Source of the DNA: Eledone cirrhosa
Lineage: Eukaryota
Assembly: GCA_964016885.1 (NCBI GenBank)
Contig: OZ024745.1
Span: forward strand, 69,688,001 to 69,752,000
Direction of reading: 5' to 3'
Length of the DNA stretch: 64,000 bases
The notes under the pieces were generated by a model that saw only the letters and a list, made by a program, of their open reading frames with translations, was not told where the DNA came from and made no database searches. Shown here piece after piece: positions 13,182-59,539 of this stretch. Every line of letters begins with the position of its first letter. The stretch's first letter is position 1. The position numbers and the translations under genes are program-made.

Positions 13182-13510
13182 AGCGAAGTAGTTTCAGATG
13201 TTCAAGTCCTTTAATAGTAATGCTGTGATATAAATTTCAATGGCGACAGTGGCCACATTTTTCCCTGCGCCAGTGCTGCGATATCGTCAGACACGTTATT
13301 ATGTAACAAGCTGTCTGACGATGTCACGGCACTGGCGCACGGAACAGTGTGGCCACTGTCGCCATTGAAATATATATCACAGCATTACTATTAAAAGTCT
13401 TGAACATATGAAACTACTTCGCTTTTCCTTATTCGATATTTACTCCGTCACTCCTATGTGGAATAAGTACGTTGAGTGCTTGAATCGAATTGCATCAATA
13501 TTTACCCTAA
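13182..13510. mobile_element. Fold-back non-coding element (family D): inverted arms 13182-13293 and 13312-13423 plus a 3' extension
   Basis: Arms are reverse complements with ~85-90% identity by eye; flanked by (TA)n; related pieces at 16863-16965. Confidence 0.8.
13310..13383 (+). ncRNA. Type I hammerhead motif with long stem II (second copy 13222-13293, minus strand)
   Basis: GCTGT-CTGACGA-[45-nt imperfect hairpin]-GAA-ATATATAT-C-ACAGC; palindromic stem III, AUC triplet. Confidence 0.65.
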
Positions 13511-13750
13511 TATATATATATATATAAACAATTAAGTTAAAAATGTACATCTACATATGCATACTGAAATACTAGTATGCATATGAATACACACACGTAT
13601 ACATATGTAGATGTACCAAGTCTTTCACTGGTTACTTTACTGTGAGTATCCAGCTATTCTGTATGTAAACACACAGACAAACCGGTTTTTAGAGTCATAC
13701 TGGTTTTTGAGGAAACACCTTTCCTCTATTCTCCAGAAAGCCAGACAAGG

Positions 13751-13795
13751 AATATTGAACTAGTTTCGTTGTTGTTACAACTCATCAGCAATATT
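13751..13795 (-). ncRNA. Minimal type I hammerhead ribozyme
   Basis: Exact reverse complement of 14573-14617. Confidence 0.85.
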
Positions 13796-14572
13796 TACCT
13801 ATCTACCGGCCTTTCTGGAGAATCGTAAAAGCACATATCGTTATATGCTTTTTCTATGAAAATTAGTAGTGGGCAGATTAATTTGCATAGAGTGTGAGTA
13901 CGTACCGGTTCAACGGAGACGATAAAAACAAATAACGAAACGAAATTAAATTTCGTTTCGTTTGTAACTCACTTTTGTATGACTGACGCTTAAACAATTA
14001 AGTTAAAAATGTACATCTACATATGCATACTGAAATACTAGTATGCATATGAATACACACACGTATACATATGTAGATGTACCAAGTCTTTCACTGGTTA
14101 CTTTACTGTGAGTATCCAGCTATTCTGTATGTAAACACACAGACAAACCGGTTTTTAGAGTCATACTGGTTTTTGAGGAAACACCTTTCCTCTATTCTCT
14201 AGAAAGCCAGACAAGGAATATTTGTCTGTGTGTTTACATACAGAATAGCTGGATACTCACAGTAAAGTAACCAGTGAAAGACTTGGTACATCTACATATG
14301 TATACGTGTGTGTATTCATATGCATACTAGTATTTCAGTATGCATATGTAGATGTACATTTTTAACTTAATTGTTTAAGCGTCAGTCATACAAAATTGAG
14401 TTACAAACGAAACGAAATTTAATTTCGTTTCGTTATTTGTTTTTATCGTCTCCGTTGAACCGGTACGTACTCACACTCTATGCAAATTAGTCTGCCCACT
14501 ACTAATTTTCATAGAAAAAGCATATAACGATATGTGCTTTTACGATTCTCCAGAAAGGCCGGTAGATAGGTA

Positions 14573-14617
14573 AATATTGCTGATGAGTTGTAACAACAAC
14601 GAAACTAGTTCAATATT
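14573..14617 (+). ncRNA. Minimal type I hammerhead ribozyme
   Basis: AATATTG-CTGATGA-GTTGT aaca ACAAC-GAA-ACTAGT-T-CAATATT: canonical core, palindromic stem III, GUU triplet (cut after 14610). Stem I is extended by TTCTCCAGAAAG/CTTTCTGGAGAA. Confidence 0.88.
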
Positions 14618-14905
14618 CCTTGTCTGGCTTTCTGGAGAATAGAGGAAAGGTGTTTCCTCAAAAACCAGTATGACTCTAAAAACCGGTTTGTCTGTGTGTT
14701 TACATACAGAATAGCTGGATACTCACAGTAAAGTAACCAGTGAAAGACTTGGTACATCTACATATGTATACGTGTGTGTATTCATATGCATACTAGTATT
14801 TCAGTATGCATATGTAGATGTACATTTTTAACTTAATTGTTTAAGCGTCAGTCATACAAAAGTGAGTTACAAACGAAACGAAATTTGATTTCGTTTCGTT
14901 ATTTG

Positions 14906-14996
<91 letters not shown>

Positions 14997-16862: not shown

Positions 16863-17085
16863 GATGCTGTGATATATATTTCAATGGCGACAGTTACTCC
16901 GTCACTCCTATGTGGAATAAGTACGTTGAGTGCTTGCATTGAATTGTATCAATGTTTACCCTAAGTATATATATATATATATATATATATAAGCAAAAGG
17001 GATATTGAATTTGTTGGTAATTCAACAAATATAAATGTTTAAAACTGATTCAAAGCACTCGACAAGTTTTCTGGAGTATAATATT

Positions 17086-18170
17086 CAATGATATTAAATA
17101 AATGGAAACTATATTTATAAAACCATATTTATTCTATTATATATATTTCAATCTTGACAATCTTTAATTGACATTCTGAAAGTTATCCTCTTTACGATAG
17201 TTCTTCGAAATGCACAATACTTTTTTTTTCTCTTCTTTGATCTTCAAACTTTCACACATCTTTCGACTAAAATAATATATAATTGAAACTCTCATCCTTG
17301 AAAAAATAATCTCACACAAAATAATATATAATTTTCTCTATATATTTTCTGAGTAAATCATTCATCAAATTTAACGGTTAGCAAACAAGATTGGAGTTAC
17401 CTTTTCCTTTTTCTTTTCCTTTTCAATCGAACATAAACATTATAATATGTATAACAAACTATATATCTTCGATAAATTAATAATATTCTGAAAACATTTT
17501 CAATGTTGGAACAAAATATTTGAATCTACAAATTGTTCTCCTCTTACAACTTGAACTACGTGTTTTTTTATGTAAAATGCAGAAGCAGCATCCTTTGTAA
17601 CTCATATTAGAAATGTAAACAATTATTAATCTATATAGATATTTATATACTTACAACATGTTGTAATGTAATAAGATAAAATCTTCTTACAACCATAATT
17701 CATCATATATTCTAATTGATTATATATACAATAATATAACTCATAGTATAGCTAAATAAATTTTAAATTCTGGAATCATATCCCACCATTGCCGCAAATT
17801 GTTAATTCCTTTTAAATTAACATAAATACCATCTCTTCTTACTTTCTTTTTCTTCTTCCTACTTATACATACATCTTAATTATTTAAATCTACATAGCGT
17901 CTCAAAATAACGTTTTTTCAGCCCTACACCTCAACATCTTTTGCATACTCATCTTAATAATTTGAAATATCTGAGTTCTCTTCTCATTTCCGTCACTATC
18001 CAGAAAAACCTTAACCGTTAAGGTATATTTTTCTGATTATGTCAATATTTATAAAACAAACTTTGTATTTTATCTGATGAGGGCGTACCAAAGTTTTAGT
18101 ACCCTTGAAATATATATAATAGAATAAATATGGTTTTATAAATATAGTTTCCATTTATTTAATATCATTG
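17086..18170 (+). mobile_element. Old AT-rich element (family E) with a 66-bp inverted copy of its 3' end and a degenerate HHR at ~18066-18126
   Basis: 17086-17151 is the reverse complement of 18105-18170; CTGATGA-GGGCGTAC..GTACCCTT-GAAA-TATA-TA near the 3' end; stem I pairs poorly. Confidence 0.55.
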
Positions 18171-25007: not shown

Positions 25008-25032
<25 letters not shown>

Positions 25033-25038
<6 letters not shown>

Positions 25039-25501
25039 ATAGAGGTATAACACACGAGTTGTGATATATTGGTAAAATGAAAAGAAAATGCTAACAAATT
25101 TTTCACAGTGAAATATAGTTTAATTAGAAATAAGTAAAAATTAGTAATAAGTATTGGTTAGTATTCAGTTTTAGTTTTAAGTTTTTACCTGTTGCGCATT
25201 TCTAATGCTTTTCAAAAATAATTTTGAGATATAGCGCCCGTGATGTTTGCTCTAATCTGATTAGTTTTGGAAATTTTAGCTGTTTTATGTGAAAAAGTTT
25301 TGCGCCAATTTTAGCTGTTTTATGTGAATAAGTTTTGCGCCAATTCGTGTTGCAAAGATTCTTGTGGTCAAAACAATTTTGATTGGTCGGTAGAGGTCAT
25401 CTGAATGTTAAAAATTGATTTTGCGCCAAATGTAGGTTTGTCGAAGAGTGTCCTTTTTCACCTGATTGAGAAGTCACTGAAAAATAAGTCTTTTAAGACA
25501 A

Positions 25502-25572
<71 letters not shown>

Positions 25573-28500
25573 TATGTGTGTGTGTGTGTGTGTGTGCGTG
25601 TGTGTGTAGCAGAGTAATTCGTGGTAGAGGGATCGGTCAGTAGGAATGTGTCTGTACGTGTGTGGAGGATATTTTAACATGTTTAAAGATATATTTCAGC
25701 TCTTGTCTTATACAGAGAATTGTGTGTGTGTGCGTTTGTATATCTCTTTGTATGTTAGTGTACGCGTGTGTATATGTGTGTGTATATATGTGTGCGTGTG
25801 TGTGTGTATATGTGTGTATGTGTGAGTGGGGAGGGACCGGTATTTTTGTGATACTGGTAAAAATCGTGTACATTATTCGATATTTTCAGCAAAAACGATT
25901 CTCTCAAGAGAACATCAAAAACATTAATAATAAAAGTATGTGAAATGATATATCGTATTGTCATAACACCAAGGTGTGTGTGAGTGTCCAGATTGTACGT
26001 ACTGCAAAGGGAATCCATATGGCCTTGCCGTATTGGAATACTTGTGTACAAATATGTATATGCCCATCAGTGTGCAATGCATGTGTGCGTGTCGGCACGT
26101 TTATATCTATAGACATCAAATAGTATGAAAATGTGTGTATATTTGTGTTGCACCATAGAACATGTGTGTTTACGTATGTCATTGTGTTTATATGTGGATA
26201 GAGATGTATGTAGGATGTATGCTGATGTAGGTATGTATGTTGACGTGTGTATGTTGTGGGTTCGTCTTAGGGAGAAGTGTTTAGACGGGGTCCGTATTTG
26301 TTAATAAAGTGAGATTCCTTGCTGATGCGCTGGGTGTGGGTGGCATATCTTTAAATTTGTAGAGGGGAAAGATTCTGAAGTTGGGATGATTTTTGGCGCG
26401 CCAGGTATCAATGTGTTCACTCAGTGGTATTTTACTGTATTCCCGTATTTTAATTTGGGATCTTTGGACAGTCATGCGTTGGCGGAGGCTGTTTTTGGTC
26501 TGGCCTATGTATTGTTCTCGACAACCTGGGCAAGTTAATACATATATTAGATTTTCTGATGCGCATGCGAAATTGTGTTTTACTATAAAACGTTGTCCTT
26601 CTTTGAAATAGAATTCCGAACCCTCTACTAGGTTGATGCATATGCCACAGTTGGGTATATCGCATTTTTTTACTTTGCGTTTCGTTGTTGTGGTTGGCAG
26701 TACTTTGGCATGTGTTATGATGTTTTTCATTGACTTACATTGTCTTTCGCTCTTTATGATATCGTGTGTTTGTAGGATGTGGTTCATTCTATGGTCCTTT
26801 TTCAACACAGGGATGTTCTGGAGGATGGTGTCAAATGCCTCATTGTTGAGGGGGTTATGATTGGAGATGTATGGAAGAGCTTTTAGTTTCGGTTGATTTA
26901 CTTTAGCGTGTCTAAGGTCCTGGGTACTGAGTTTTAGGGAACGTTGGATTCCATTGTCAATTAGTGATGCAGGGTAGTCCCTGCCTATGAGTGTGTCCTT
27001 TAGTTCTTGTAGCCGTAAGTAGCAGGTGTTTTTATTGGAGACTATAGTACAGATTCTCTTGGCTAAGTTGTAGGGAATATTAATTTTAACGTGTCTAGGG
27101 TGGCAAGAGTTGAAAGGAAGATATTGCTTGGAGTCTGTGGGCTTGTAGTATATGTCTGTTTCTATTTTTTTGTTATGGATCTTAATGAGGATGTCGAGGA
27201 AGGGGAGTTGTTGATGGCTGTATTCCATCGTGAAGTTAATATTCGTGTTGAGCCCATTTATAAGGGTGTGAAATTCTTTAAGTTTCTCGATGTTTTCGTG
27301 CCAGAGGATGAAGCAGTCATCTAGATATCGCTTGCAGTTCCTTTCTATGTGTAACTGGAGAGTGTTTCCAAATTTGTTTAGTACTTTAGTGTAGAGGGTA
27401 ATTTCCAGGTATCCCATGACTAGGTTGGAATAAGTGGGCCCTGTTTTCGTTCCCATAGCGGTCCCAGATTTCTGCCTGTAGGGTTTGTTATTGAAAACGA
27501 AGTAATTGTTCTCCAAGATAAATTTGAGTCCCTCTATCACGAATTCTTTTTTGATGCGTTGTGGGAGTTCACTGTGGTAATTATCCAGCCAGAATTGGAT
27601 AGCTTCTATTCCTAGGTTGTGGGGGATGTTGGAGTATAGGTTAACTACATCAAACGTCACTAGTAGGGTTTGTTGAGAAAGGGGCATATTAGGGAGGTGA
27701 TTGAGCATATCTAGGTCGTCACTTATATAGCTTTTGATGTGTTTGAGAAAAGGCTTGAGAAGAGTATCAATGAAGTTGCTACAGCGGTGGGTTTCGCAAG
27801 CGGGGCCTGCTATTATAGGTCTTAATTTGAGATCATTGGGTGAGAGGACATTGATGACTATGTCTGTGGCTTCCTTGCAAGCCTTACTTATTAATTCGCT
27901 TTTATGTACTTTAGGGATACCGTAGAAAAGGCTGGATTTACTTGTGAAGTCTGTGATGAAGCTGAATTCCTTGTTAGTGAGCCCTTCTTTGTATTGGTTG
28001 ATCATAGTTTTTAGGTTTCTCATAATTTTCTGTTGATTGTAGTGTTCAACATTTTCGTAGTATGTTTCGTTTTCCAAAGTGGAGAGCGCTAAGTTGATAT
28101 AGAATTCTGTCTCCATTAGGACTACTGTACTCCCTTTATCAGTCTCTTTAATTGTAATGGTTCTGTCGGTTTTTAATCTATTTAATTCTTCCCTTTCTTT
28201 CTTGTTGAGGTTTGGCTTGTGCTTTTGTCTGTGCAAGTGTTGGCAAAGGAAGTTTGTGATGTGTTCACAGAATTCGTCCAGGATTTTATTTCTACCTTTT
28301 GATGGGGTGTAGTTGCTTCTATTTCTGGCTAATGATTCATCCTCATTGTACCGGTCGAATAGTTCTTTACTGAGTCGTAACTTTCTACAGAAGTTTGTGA
28401 TAGCTTCTTTCATTTTATAGTAGTTAGGACGTAGTGGGATCGGTGTAAATTTAAGACCTTTGGAGAGTAAGTTGATAAGGTTGGGTGTTGGTTCTGCACT

Positions 28501-29342
28501 AGTTAGATTGATAATTTTTATTACCCTCGGTTTCTCCTCCCTGTCTTGTGTTATTTGGTTTGCCTGTATCTGCGTGCTGTGTCTAAAAAATGGTTGGGGT
28601 AGAGGGGTTGTCTGCTGATGTTAAGTGGTCTCCTGTGTTTGTTATATTCCTTGTTGTTGTAAAATGTGGTTCGGGTTCGTGGTTGTAGATTGAATGGGGT
28701 GTTCCTGTATTGCGAGTATGGATGTGTGTTTCTATCCACATATAAACACAATGACATACGTAAACACACATGTTCTATGGTTCAACACAAATATACACAA
28801 ATTTGCATACCTTTTGATGACTATAGATATAAACCTGACGGCACACACACATACATATACGCACACATGCATTGCACACTGATGGGCACATACATATTTG
28901 TACACAAGTATTCTAATACGGCAAGGCCTAACGGATTCCCCTTGCAGTACGTACAATCTGGACACTCACACACACATTGGTGTTATGAAAATACTATATA
29001 TCATTTCACACCTTTTATTATTAATGTTTTTGATATGCTCTTGAGAGAATCGTTTTTGCTGAAAATATCGAATAATGTACACCATTTTTACCAGTATCAC
29101 AAAAAATACTGCCCCCCCCCCCCGCGCACACACATACACACATACACACACATATATACACACACATATATACACACACACATACACTAACATACAGAGA
29201 GACATATACACACACAGACACACACACACACACTTCTCCGTATAAGACAAAAGCTGAAATATATCTTTCAACATGTTAAAATATCCCCACACACGTACAG
29301 ACACATTCCTACTGACCGATCCCTCTAGCACGAATTACTCGG

Positions 29343-29412
<70 letters not shown>

Positions 29413-29915
29413 TTTGTCTTAATAGGCACCTGATCTGTTGACCTTTCAACATGACTGCAATTCACACACATCCCTACTGACCATTATCACAAGAATGAAC
29501 CTCTTTACTACACACACATATTTGTCTTAAAATACTTATTTTTCAGTGACTTCTCAATCAGACGAAAAAGGAAACTCTTCGACAAACCTACATTCACGTG
29601 ACCTCTACCGACCAATCAAAATTGTTTTGACCACACGAATTTTTGCAACACGAATTGGCGTGAAACTTATTTTAATACCTCTGGAGCCACTTTTTTCACA
29701 TAAAACAATTAGAATTTCCAAAAGTGATCACATTAGAGAAAACATCACAGGCGCTCTATCTCAAAATTATTTTTGAATAGCATTAGAAATGCGCAACCGG
29801 TAAAAGCTTAAAACTAAAACTGAATACTAACCAATACTTATTACTAATTTTTACTTATTTCTAATTAAACTATTTTTCACTGTGAACAATTTGTCAGCAT
29901 TTTCTTTTCCTTTTA

Positions 29916-29920
<5 letters not shown>
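25033..29920 (-). mobile_element. Penelope-like element family A (Neptune-like), near-complete, with an inverted copy of its 3' UTR (28731-29920, plus strand)
   Basis: RT/GIY-YIG ORF; ~1.2-kb CA-rich 3' UTR (25033-26266) repeated in inverted orientation; both ends in (TA)n. Confidence 0.93.
26281..28620 (-). CDS. PLE polyprotein (reverse transcriptase + Cys linker + GIY-YIG endonuclease), 1-bp frameshift near the C-terminus
   Basis: The frame is open from 28620 (INLT..LLSKGLKFTP precedes the Met at 28413). Motifs: FYGIPKVHK, LRPII, FDVVNLYSNI, GTAMG, RYLDD, C..CGIC, LIYVLTC..C.EQYIGQT. The sister copy at 57481-57690 shows the likely true end ..KYGPRLNTSP* (stop at 26267-26269). Confidence 0.9.
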   Translation of the reverse strand, partial: HQQTTPLPQPFFRHSTQIQANQITQDREEKPRVIKIINLTSAEPTPNLINLLSKGLKFTPIPLRPNYYKMKEAITNFCRKLRLSKELFDRYNEDESLARNRSNYTPSKGRNKILDEFCEHITNFLCQHLHRQKHKPNLNKKEREELNRLKTDRTITIKETDKGSTVVLMETEFYINLALSTLENETYYENVEHYNQQKIMRNLKTMINQYKEGLTNKEFSFITDFTSKSSLFYGIPKVHKSELISKACKEATDIVINVLSPNDLKLRPIIAGPACETHRCSNFIDTLLKPFLKHIKSYISDDLDMLNHLPNMPLSQQTLLVTFDVVNLYSNIPHNLGIEAIQFWLDNYHSELPQRIKKEFVIEGLKFILENNYFVFNNKPYRQKSGTAMGTKTGPTYSNLVMGYLEITLYTKVLNKFGNTLQLHIERNCKRYLDDCFILWHENIEKLKEFHTLINGLNTNINFTMEYSHQQLPFLDILIKIHNKKIETDIYYKPTDSKQYLPFNSCHPRHVKINIPYNLAKRICTIVSNKNTCYLRLQELKDTLIGRDYPASLIDNGIQRSLKLSTQDLRHAKVNQPKLKALPYISNHNPLNNEAFDTILQNIPVLKKDHRMNHILQTHDIIKSERQCKSMKNIITHAKVLPTTTTKRKVKKCDIPNCGICINLVEGSEFYFKEGQRFIVKHNFACASENLIYVLTCPGCREQYIGQTKNSLRQRMTVQRSQIKIREYSKIPLSEHIDTWRAKNHPNFRIFPLYKFKDMPPTPSASARNLTLLTNTDPV

Positions 29921-56114: not shown

Positions 56115-56186
56115 TGACGTACATGGGAGTCGAACCCACATCTTTGGTTATTCAGACCACTGTGCTACCATTTACACCAACACATC
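56115..56186 (-). tRNA. tRNA-like sequence, anticodon GAA (probable pseudogene or SINE head)
   Basis: 72-nt cloverleaf: GATGTGT/GTACGTC acceptor stem (3 G-U pairs), GTGT/GCAC D arm, TGGT-CTGAATA-ACCA anticodon arm, GTGGG-TTCGACT-CCCAT T arm. Confidence 0.55.
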
Positions 56187-56195
56187 ACATATATG

Positions 56196-56743
56196 TTGGT
56201 AAAAGGAAAAGAAAATGCTGACAAATTATTCCCAGTGAAAAATAGTTTAATTAGTAATAAGTAAAAAATTAGTAATAAGTATTGGTTAGTATTCAGTTTT
56301 GGTTTTAAGTTTTTACCGGTTGCGCATTTCTAATGCTTTTCAAAAATAATGTTGAGATAGAGCGCCCGTGATGTTTGCTCTAATCTGATCAGTTTTGGAA
56401 ATTCTACCTGTTTTATGTGAAAAAAGTGGCTCCAGAAGTATTAAAATAAGTTTCGCGCCAATTCGAGTTGCAAACATTTTTGTGGTCAAAACTATTTTGA
56501 TTGGTCGGTAGAGGTCACGTGAATGTTAAACATTGATTTTGCGCCAAATGTAGGTTTGCCGAAGAGTGTCTTTTTTCGCCTGATTGAGAAGTCACTGAAA
56601 AATAAGTCTTTTAAGACAAATATGCGTGTGTGTGTGTGTGTGTGTAGTAAAGAGGTTCATTGTTGTGATAATGGTCAGTAGGGATGTGTGTGTGAATTGC
56701 AGTCATGTTGACAGGTCAAATGTTCCGGTGCCTTTTAAGAAAA

Positions 56744-56800
<57 letters not shown>

Positions 56801-59143
56801 CGAAAGAGAGTGTGTGTGTGTAGCCGAGTAATTCGTGGTAGAGGGATCGGTCAGTAGGAATGTGTCTGTACGTGTGTGGGGTATATTTTAACATGTAGAA
56901 ATATATTTTTCAGCTCTTGTCTTATACGGAGAAGTGTGTGTGTGTGTGTGTGTGTGTATATGTCTCTTTGTATGTTAGTGTATGTGTGTGTATATATGTG
57001 TGTGTATACGTGTGTATGTGTGCGTGTGGGGGGGGGGGGTACCAGTATTTTTGTGATACTGGTAAAAATCGTGCACATTATTCGATATTTTCAGCAAAAA
57101 CGATTCTCAAGAGAACATCAAAAACATTAATAATAAAAGGTGTGAAATGATATATAGTATTGTCATAGCACCAAGGTGTGTGTGAGTGTCCAGATTGTAC
57201 GTACTGCAAGGGGAATCCATTAGGCCCTGCCGTATTGGAATACTTGAGTACAAATATGTATGTGCCCATCAGTGTGCAATGCATGTGTGCGTATATGTGT
57301 GTGTGTCGGCACGTTTATATCTATAGACATCAAAAGGTATGAAAATTTGTGTATATTTGTGTTGCACCATAGACCATGTGTGTTTACGTATGTCATTGTG
57401 TTTATATGTGGATAGAGATGTATGTAGGATGTATGCTGATGAAGGTATGTATGTTGACGTGTGTATGTTGTGGGTTCGTCTTAGGGAGAAGTGTTTAGAC
57501 GGGGTCCGTATTTGTTAATAAATTGAGATTCCTTGCTGATGCGCTGGGTGTGGGTGACATTATCTTTAAATTGGTAGAGGGTAAAGATTCTGAAGTTGGG
57601 ATGATTTTGGGCGGCACAGGTATCAATGTGTTCACTCAGTGGTATTTTACTGTATTCCTGTATTTTAATTTGGGATCTATGGACAGTCATGCATTGGCGG
57701 CGGCTGTTTTTGGTCTGGCCTATGTATTGTTCTAGACAACCTGAGCAAGTTAATACATATATTAGATTTTCTGATGCGCATGTTAAATTCTGTTTTATTA
57801 TAAAACGTTGTCCTAATCTCTAATCTTTATTAACAAATACCTACCCCGTCTAAGCACTTCTCCCTAAGACGATCCTACAACATACACACGTCAACATACA
57901 TACCTACATCAGCATACATCCTTCATACATCTCTATCCACATATAGACACAATGACATATGTAAACACACATGTTCTATGGTGCAACACAAATATACACA
58001 AATTTGCGTACCTTTTGATGTCTATAGATATAAACGTGCCGATACACACACATACATATACGAACATATGCATTGCACACTGATGGGCACATACATATTT
58101 GTACACAAGTATTCCAATACAGCAGGGCCTAATGGATTCCCCTTGCAGTACGTACAATCTGGACACTCACACACACCTTGGTGTTATGACAATACTATAT
58201 ATCATTTCACACCTTTTATTATTAATGTTTTTGATGTTCTCTTGAGAGAATCATTTTGCTGAAAATATCGAATAATGTACACCATTTTTACCAGTATCAC
58301 AAAAATCCTGGTCCACCCACACACACACACACACATACACACATATACACACACACACATATATACACACACACGCATACATAGAGACATATACAAACAC
58401 ACACACACTTCTCTGTATAAGACAAGAGCTGAAAAATATCTTTTAACATGTTAAAATAACCCCACACACGTACAGACACATTCCTACTGACCGATCCCTC
58501 CACCACGAATTACTCTGCTACACACACACACACACAATCACACACACATACGCACACACACACATATTTTTCTTAATAAGCACCGGAACTGTTGACCCGT
58601 CAACATGACTGCAATTCACACACACATCCCTACTGACCATTATCACAACAATGAACCTCTTTACACACCCTCACACACGCATATTTGTCTTAAAAGACTT
58701 ATTTTTCAGTGACTTCTCAATAAGGCGAAAAAAGACACTCTTCGACAAACCTACATTTGGCGCAAAATCAAATTTTAACATTCACGTGACTTCTACTGAC
58801 CAATCAAAATTGTTTTGACCACAAGAATTCTTGCCACACGAATTGGCGCGAAACTTATTTTAATACTTCTGGAGCCACTTTTTTCACATAAAACAGCTAA
58901 AATTTCCAAAACTAATCAGATTAGAGCAAACATCACGGGCGCTCTATCTCAAAATTATTTTTGAAAAGCATTAGAAATGCGCAACCGGCAAAAACTTAAA
59001 ACCAAAACTGAATACTAACCAATACTTATTACTAATTTTTACTTCTTCCTATTTAAACTATTTTTCACTGGGAACAATTTGTCAGCATTTTCTTTTTCTT
59101 TTACCAATATATCATAACTCGTGTGTTATACCTCTATTCTTTT
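56196..59143. mobile_element. PLE family A palindrome: minus arm 56196-57812 (GIY-YIG C-terminus + 3' UTR), plus arm ~57826-59143
   Basis: Both arms align to 25033-26600; ORF 57481-57690 is the endonuclease C-terminus. Confidence 0.93.
56311..56346 (-). ncRNA. Variant hammerhead-like motif in PLE-A 3' UTR (also 25183-25218 -, 29770-29805 +, 58958-58993 +)
   Basis: TTT-TTGAAAA-GCAT tagaa ATGC-GCA-ACCGGT-A-AAA: U3-A8 core, A13C, palindromic stem III, but only a 3-bp stem I. Confidence 0.5.
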
Positions 59144-59167
59144 AAATATATATATATACACATATAC

Positions 59168-59227
<60 letters not shown>

Positions 59228-59380
59228 AAAAAGAGATGAAATCGAAAATGCAACTGGAGTCTTATTTTTTTTTTAAATATATATATTTATTTGGTTCCTT
59301 TACTGGTTTCGCAGTTCTTCTGCTTTTCAAAAGGTGAGTTGAGATGGAGAGTCTGTGGTTAGACCCTCCATCTCAACTCA

Positions 59381-59418
59381 CCTTTTGAAAAGCAGAAGAA
59401 CTGCGAAACAGGTAAAGG
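59381..59418 (+). ncRNA. Minimal type I hammerhead, U3-A8 variant (second copy 59297-59334, minus strand)
   Basis: CCTT-TTGAAAA-GCAG aagaa CTGC-GAA-ACAGGT-A-AAGG; the other arm has ACCAGT, so the inferred ancestor is the palindrome ACCGGT; GUA triplet. Confidence 0.72.
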
Positions 59419-59539
59419 AACCAAATAATTATATATATATTTTTAAAAAAAATAAGACTGCAGTTGCATTTTCGATTTCATCTGACAGACAAGTTTGCAA
59501 TTTTCTGAAAATTGCAAACTTGACTGTCACCACATATTA

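What the first reader, a model, noticed from the sequence alone, without database searches (positions are those of the whole stretch)
13525..14911. 466-nt hammerhead retrozyme-like RNA unit, with one arm starting at the ribozyme cut site
Seen: a non-coding 466-bp unit carries one canonical minimal HHR and several strong hairpins (TACATCTACATATG/CATATGTAGATGTA, AACGAAACGAAATT/AATTTCGTTTCGTT, extended stem I). It is present as two almost identical ~1.5-mers in opposite orientation. The minus arm begins at 14222, 1 nt from the predicted cleavage point, so 14222 to 13758 is a cut-to-cut monomer. Established: minimal HHRs with a palindromic stem III act as dimers in PLEs, and tandem HHR repeats (non-LTR retrozymes) yield circular RNAs in other metazoans. 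Inference: this is a young non-autonomous self-cleaving RNA, perhaps circular, that is copied by a PLE reverse transcriptase. The junction would be a genomic fossil of in vivo cleavage. I do not recognise the family.
Basis: partly seen in the sequence, partly recalled or inferred. Interest (0 to 1): 0.88.

Follow-up and report, generated by a model that had tools for sequence, protein, structure and literature searches.

The report
Two-armed, Penelope-inserted hammerhead retrozyme
This is one young copy of a 466-base non-coding repeat with a predicted self-cutting RNA motif, present at thousands of places in this animal genome; its copies carry the insertion marks of Penelope-type jumping genes and likely RNA-editing scars repeated in every unit, which suggests they were copied round and round from one small, probably circular RNA.

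Summary
In detail: two opposed arms (698 and 692 nt) of a 466-nt unit, each with one type I hammerhead, sit in (TA)n.

The unit is a non-LTR retrozyme with thousands of copies. It shows the Penelope (PLE) footprint: 3' ends fall at two sites about 70 nt apart, and 63 of 68 inverted pairs have one of each. The ribozyme fold covaries and its core is conserved.

The 'fossil of cleavage' is probably chance (about 30-45% real). 5' ends are only about 1.5-1.7x enriched at the cut, and 330 passes cross it against 7 stops nearby.

Rare variants shared by all turns of a locus are A>G-rich (22 of 51, against 29 of 289 among single-unit variants). This replicated in a pre-specified set, but rests on 9 loci. 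It points to one edited RNA unit copied repeatedly, most simply a circle. Two loci fuse the unit to a Neptune-like PLE. No copy was an ORF-linked pLTR. Cleavage and circles were not tested.

The kind is known (PMC7229834; a 2026 preprint), and this scan noted the same family and similar families on other DNA of this genome.

The parts
13525..14222 (-). Left arm: unit positions 2-466 then 1-233 (1.5 turns); ends at the short 3' site
14221..14912 (+). Right arm: unit positions 77-466 then 1-302; ends at the tail 3' site
14221..14222 (.). Head-to-head junction of the two 5'-truncated arms, 2-nt microhomology
14573..14617 (+). Type I hammerhead, predicted cut between 14610 and 14611, palindromic 2-bp helix III
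13751..13795 (-). Mirror hammerhead of the left arm, predicted cut between 13758 and 13757
14545..14641 (+). Extended helix I that closes around the ribozyme
   Evidence: fold; pairs
14480..14487 (+). Octamer ATGCAAAT (mirror copy 13881-13888), also in the sister family; possible snRNA-type promoter element (inferred)
   Evidence: 409 of 482 family copies carry it; 13 of 31 sister-family ribozymes have it upstream
14286..14357 (+). Long hairpin upstream of the short 3' site (second copy 14752-14823)
14844..14912 (+). About 70-nt tail between the two 3' end sites, with the hairpin 14872-14900
13509..13524 (.). Left (TA)n target tract
14913..14996 (.). Right (TA)n target tract

Best explanation
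This is a daughter insertion of a non-coding hammerhead retrozyme that a Neptune-type Penelope enzyme likely wrote into a (TA)n tract from both sides of a break, starting at two fixed internal sites of one RNA unit that was probably circular and could be copied for several turns. Shown: the anatomy, the copy number, the two 3' end sites and their pairing, free passage over the cut site, a conserved and covarying ribozyme, and A>G clusters shared by all turns. Inferred: multi-unit loci are transcribed, perhaps from an internal snRNA-type promoter. Neighbouring ribozymes pair through the palindromic helix III and cut out monomers, which a host ligase closes; a lone ribozyme in the circle would be inactive. 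ADAR edits some molecules. The PLE protein nicks (TA)n, primes one cDNA at position 228-233 and the other at 298-302, and runs until random fall-off (median about 530 nt), after which the two cDNA ends are joined head to head. Long arrays also grow later by DNA-level duplication.
For: Copy number: 1,576 and 1,995 exact hits for two 25-mers. Ends: 199 of 221 arms end in TA; 63 of 68 inverted pairs in a positional sample of 118 loci have one short and one tail end, with 0 tail+tail, and 35 of 35 in the replication set. Two local Neptune-like families show the same two ends in TA. This matches the PLE tail and dual RT start sites (PMC8557442 passages; PMC11167929 main text). Passage: 330 passes over the cut against 7 stops, and 9 of 465 passes have an indel there. 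Editing: A>G is 22 of 51 all-turn-shared rare variants against 29 of 289 single-unit ones; replication 12 of 24 against 10 of 113 (predicted in note 52). Clusters of two or more A>G occur in 6 loci as all-turn-shared and in 0 of 179 single units. Both arms share a rare variant in 16 of 29 loci. Ribozyme: core intact in 434 of 452 copies, and no variant seen in 5 or more loci hits the core; 6 of 21 pairs change on both sides. Fusions to one Neptune-like family at L176 and L076.
Against: Cleavage, ligation and circular RNA were not tested. The A>G excess rests on 9 loci, and 7 of the 12 replication events come from one locus. With strictly private variants the discovery set is not significant (3 of 14 against 13 of 118, p=0.38). 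At locus level A>G (9) and T>C (6) differ little. Edited sites are no more paired than other adenines (0.64 against 0.61). 14 of 27 long arms have variants that recur in only some turns, several with periods of 2-6 units, which a monomer circle alone does not give. The mild excess of stops at the cut, and L105 and L109, show some cut linear templates. The PLE fusions could be later insertions with deletion, and L076 breaks the short+tail rule. No sequence homology was found between the unit and the 3' regions of five PLE copies, so the partner is not proven.
Confidence: 0.65

Rival explanations
1. Same enzyme and ends, but the template is a cut linear monomer and the reverse transcriptase jumps from its 5' end back to its 3' end.
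For: It explains identical turns and shared edits equally well. There is a mild excess of 5' ends at the cut. L109 runs to position 1 twice, restarting at the short site; L105 has units that begin at position 1 joined to a 3' side shortened by 27 nt.
Against: About 98% of arrivals cross the cut (330 of 337) and 456 of 465 joints have no indel. End-to-end jumping would be expected to leave more stops and untidy joints (inference).
Confidence: 0.15
2. Templates are long, mostly uncut read-through transcripts of genomic arrays, and the ribozyme matters little.
For: In the anole PLE, uncut RNA is the dominant substrate in vitro (PMC11167929). PLE ribozymes cleave poorly (PMC4209133). Only 1 of 9 frog retrozyme dimers cleaved (2026 preprint). 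Arrays of about 30 units exist. Some arms mix unit types.
Against: A>G clusters are never confined to one turn (0 of 179 units) but are shared by all turns in 6 loci. The core and helices are conserved across subfamilies and in a distant sister family.
Confidence: 0.12
3. The unit is only the pseudo-LTR of an autonomous PLE, and these are truncated copies.
For: Li et al. 2026 find frog retrozymes homologous to pLTRs. Only a few hundred of thousands of loci were read.
Against: Arms longer than one unit continued into more units; 51 of 96 arms exceed 466 nt. All 80 loci picked by the tail motif alone were this unit or a short piece of it. Of 48 odd flanks only L176 matched a PLE protein, as an opposed fusion. 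The longest ATG frames are 19 and 50 aa.
Confidence: 0.04
4. A DNA-level satellite or foldback element that spreads by recombination at (TA)n without an RNA step.
For: Higher-order periods in long arrays show DNA-level duplication.
Against: It does not explain fixed 3' ends with random 5' ends, the strand-specific A>G excess, or ribozyme covariation.
Confidence: 0.04

Closest known systems
Metazoan non-LTR retrozymes (Cervera and de la Pena 2020, PMC7229834; passages and Discussion read)
   Same: Non-coding, low-GC tandem units with one type I hammerhead each, from dimers to long arrays. PLE enzymes copying a circle into tandem cDNA is proposed there.
   Different: The unit is slightly longer than their 170-400 nt. 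Two-armed insertions, two fixed 3' sites, (TA)n targeting and editing scars are not in the passages read. Their RNAs were shown by northern blot; this one is not.
Li, Clavereau and Pollet 2026, bioRxiv 10.64898/2026.07.22.740005 (parts 1-3 of 5 read: abstract to discussion; supplements closed)
   Same: [quoted passage not shown]
   Different: Its evidence is co-occurrence and pLTR homology, and it suggests local tandem amplification. Here the evidence is the insertion footprint, and no pLTR homologue was found.
EN+ Penelope-like elements, Neptune type (PMC8557442 passages; PMC11167929 main text and part of methods)
   Same: 5' truncation, inverted partner arm, tail at one end only, two internal RT start sites, AT-rich or (TA)n targets.
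   Different: No reading frame. The tail is about 70 nt rather than 30-40 nt (a local Neptune-like family also has about 65 nt). The repeats are whole-unit multi-turn tandems.
Newt satellite 2 and axolotl retrozymes (PMC7229834 passages; promoter from a passage in PMC2220036)
   Same: Weak palindromic helix III needing dimers. An internal snRNA-type promoter is reported for the newt repeat, and an octamer is present here.
   Different: The promoter here is only a motif match; that octamers belong to such promoters is recalled knowledge.

Membership tests
Non-LTR retrozyme | Tandem units each with a type I hammerhead | tested here: met
   434 of 452 copies have an intact core; covariation; arrays of about 30 units
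Non-LTR retrozyme | Non-coding, low GC, no LTR | tested here: met
   Longest ATG frames 19 and 50 aa; 163 G+C of 466; ends are two internal sites, not LTRs. PBS and PPT were not searched.
Non-LTR retrozyme | Dispersed, recently mobile | tested here: met
   Hits on many contigs at 99-100% identity; 1,995 tail ends
Non-LTR retrozyme | Self-cleavage | not testable with these tools
   Only indirect: conservation and a mild excess of 5' ends at the cut
Non-LTR retrozyme | Expressed as linear and circular monomer RNA | not testable with these tools
   Needs RNA data or bench work; genomic inference only
Non-LTR retrozyme | Target-site duplication longer than 4 bp when present | tested here: inconclusive
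   Cannot be read inside (TA)n
PLE-mobilised element | Tail at one end only, from two RT start sites | tested here: met
   63 of 68 pairs are short+tail
PLE-mobilised element | 5' truncation with an inverted partner arm | tested here: met
   68 of 118 positional loci are inverted pairs; 5' ends fall in all ten bins of the unit
PLE-mobilised element | Microsatellite or AT-rich target | tested here: met
   199 of 221 arms; part of the sample was picked by a TA-ended pattern, and the unselected set gives 56 of 63
PLE-mobilised element | Homology to the pLTR of an autonomous partner | tested here: inconclusive
   None among 50 GIY-YIG loci of 10,596 candidates; two fusions only
Autonomous PLE | RT plus GIY-YIG reading frame | tested here: not met
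Plant LTR retrozyme | Type III hammerhead in LTRs | tested here: not met
   Type I topology, no LTRs

The most novel reading that the evidence does not exclude
The genome holds a fossil record of a viroid-like RNA circle: single molecules edited by ADAR were read round and round by two Penelope reverse transcriptases from two fixed start sites, so each edit is stamped into every turn of both arms. Host RNA editing thereby becomes heritable variation that drives the element's evolution, and fusions name a local Neptune family as the helper.
Probability: 0.45. Interest if true: 0.82.

Novelty: new variant of a known kind. Interest (0 to 1): 0.62.

Why it matters
How animal retrozymes get back into the genome has been proposed (a PLE enzyme on a circular RNA) but, in the papers read, not shown. 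This family gives a defined 466-nt substrate, two predicted start sites, a target, and candidate enzymes with long open frames. The step can therefore be tested directly in the published in vitro PLE assay. The shared A>G clusters offer a way to infer RNA template topology from genome sequence alone. The element class itself is known, and the headline junction is probably not special.

Tried and rejected
- Rfam: no ribozyme hit at gathering thresholds.
- Sequencing runs: no RNA holder listed among 6 rows. Four runs were laid as contigs; they show TA loose ends at both 3' sites in X1, which may be the source sample, and low-depth pieces in two other coded organisms. Not used as evidence.
- Pile-up of 5' ends at the cut: weak; 2 stops against 1.9 expected in the replication set.
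- Both arms stopping near the cut (about 5 loci): not used, because arms also meet at similar positions elsewhere in the unit through hairpins.
- Dimer circle: L068 alternates ABAB and the B unit has a core change, but other arrays have periods of 3-6 that DNA duplication explains. Left as a hint.
- Partner search: 50 GIY-YIG loci; a relaxed ribozyme pattern, with 30 of 252 hits fetched and 7 odd ones read. No homologue. L255 looked fused but has TA between.
- Sister-family unit alignment failed because no full unit was held.
- Rows dropped before counts: duplicate loci; 11 complex or misaligned loci; six loci (L075, L100, L105, L109, L170, L234), plus the first 90 nt of each arm and 102 positions with common variants.
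- Literature: searches listed no paper on two-armed retrozyme insertions or on editing scars in them. Subscription papers and supplements were not seen.

Full report
Observation. The described structure is real. A 466-nt unit occurs as a 698-nt minus arm (14222 to 13525) and a 692-nt plus arm (14221 to 14912), joined head to head with a 2-nt overlap. The arms differ from each other at only a few positions. I number the unit from the base after the predicted cut (window 14611 = 1). The minus arm then covers 2-466 plus 1-233, and the plus arm 77-466 plus 1-302. Both run out into (TA)n. Each arm has one full type I hammerhead with a 2-bp palindromic helix III, whose 2-nt loop is too tight to fold as a monomer while two copies pair at -7.2 kcal/mol. 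This is the dimer-type motif of PMC4209133 (passages read). Rfam did not call it. The unit has no reading frame and folds far better than shuffles (z -9.5).

Family. The genome is 3.0 Gb. The host is probably an octopod, inferred from the closest named PLE protein. The best 40 of 572 candidates were mostly 99-100% identical. A 25-mer has 1,576 exact hits and the tail-plus-TA motif 1,995. I aligned 193 loci: 39 by position on contig 1, 25 from the top hits, 80 by the tail motif, and 49 from truncation patterns. All were subfamilies of the same unit. The catalytic core is intact in 434 of 452 copies, and no variant seen in five or more loci touches it. Common changes in the ribozyme are a compensated pair in helix II, a wobble, a loop change, an edge pair and GUU to GUC. 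On 12 sequences that I picked (10 of this family, 2 of a sister family), 96.8% of cells pair and 6 of 21 pairs change on both sides, mostly through the sister family. The sequences are related, so the shuffle control overstates significance.

Penelope footprint. 3' ends fall at 223-234 or 295-302 in 211 of 221 arms, and 199 end in TA. In 118 positionally sampled loci, 68 are inverted pairs and 63 of them have one short and one tail end; none has two tails. Published PLE work describes an inverted truncated partner and a tail at only one end (PMC8557442, passages), and traces the tail to two internal RT start sites (PMC11167929, main text). Two autonomous Neptune-like families in this genome show the same pair of ends in TA, about 40 and 65 nt apart. 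One has a two-armed copy in this window. L176 fuses a retrozyme tail arm, without TA, to a truncated copy of that family ending at its short site. L076 fuses to its last 240 nt through a small foldback, ending at the tail. A later PLE insertion with deletion could also give these, and I found no homology between the unit and sampled PLE ends. The partner is therefore a candidate only.

The junction at the cut. A pattern that picks arms starting at positions 1-4 gave 27 hits, of which 23 are true starts, 22 without this window. The same design at two control positions gave 10 and 16 (p=0.048). Removing two same-locus partners and one internal deletion leaves 19. In the positional sample, 7 arms stop within 10 nt of the cut against 3.8 expected, while 330 passes go through. 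The excess implies a 30-45% chance that a given junction here reflects a cut RNA end. The main result is the opposite one: the cut site is hardly a barrier, and 456 of 465 crossings have no indel.

Template. Turns and arms of one locus share a haplotype, including rare variants. In the first 122 loci those shared variants were A>G-rich on the ribozyme strand (18 of 46, against 20 of 197 single-unit variants). I wrote down a prediction and tested 60 new loci: 12 of 24 against 10 of 113, and pooled under stricter filters 22 of 51 against 29 of 289. Events cluster by molecule, so these p-values overstate. Only 9 loci contribute, one gives 7 events, and the strictly private discovery subset is not significant. 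The cleaner statement is that clusters of two or more A>G occur as all-turn-shared in 6 loci, against 1 locus for any other change, and in 0 of 179 single units. L174 differs from its nearest neighbour only by three A>G within 6 nt, present in all 12 turns read. L242 has the same run of A>G changes between 314 and 432 in every turn. Clustered strand-specific A>G is the ADAR signature (established knowledge, recalled). Its presence in every turn means one unit was copied repeatedly, in this or an earlier generation. A circle is the simplest reading; end-to-end jumping on a cut monomer is not excluded. Against a pure monomer circle, 14 of 27 long arms have variants recurring in only some turns, pointing to later DNA duplication or multimeric templates.

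Comparison. Non-LTR retrozymes are known, are shown to make circles in coral, mussel and axolotl, and were proposed to use PLE enzymes (PMC7229834). A 2026 preprint supports a PLE origin by co-occurrence and pLTR homology. Neither text, as far as read, reports two-armed insertions, fixed start sites or editing scars, and nine searches listed no such paper. Earlier notes of this scan, seen only after the main analyses, describe this family (e1-8803865, which favours cut RNA units) and 310-nt and 422-nt families with the same footprint. They are not independent support.

Verdict. A real, young retrozyme insertion with a clear Penelope footprint. The class is known; the mechanistic evidence in the family is new relative to the papers read, and it is testable. 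The specific junction is probably incidental.

Noticed in passing
window about 25030-29920: Two-armed Neptune-like PLE: 779-aa open frame at 26281-28620 (minus; RVT_1 hit, CxxxxCxxC linker), tail end near 25030 and short end near 29917. Same family as the PLE parts fused to the retrozyme at L176 and L076.
   Followed up: partly
window about 56195-59440: A second pair of ends of the same PLE family (short end near 56195, tail end near 59145), and a degenerate ribozyme motif of another Neptune-like family at 59376.
   Followed up: no
window 56115-56186 (minus): Rfam tRNA match directly after a PLE end; possibly a tRNA-derived SINE head.
   Followed up: no
window 18062-18135: A different hammerhead-like motif with a TATATA palindromic helix III, also seen at L217:6650.
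   Followed up: no
L217:7640-8001, L218:1180-1760, L200:1866-2215: Sister retrozyme family with the same palindromic helix III, octamer and a related tail; helices I and II fully compensated. One pattern counts 17,935 ribozyme motifs for both families together. L200 is a fusion of the two families.
   Followed up: partly
L207, L208, L218 3' regions: An abundant Neptune-like family (938-aa open frame at L207; closest named relative from Octopus bimaculoides, 75% over 54% of the query) carries a U3-A8 variant hammerhead about 80 nt before its short end and has a tail of about 65 nt.
   Followed up: partly
L105 and L109: Units starting exactly at the cut and joined to a shortened 3' side (1-439 repeated; 1-232 then 1-230): better candidates for cleavage fossils than the window.
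   Followed up: partly
L174, L241 unit positions 336-341: Shared A>G changes fall in the octamer, which might silence those copies.
   Followed up: no
window 13182-13423: A 120-nt inverted repeat (89%) just left of the finding, part of another repeat also seen near 16864-16964.
   Followed up: no
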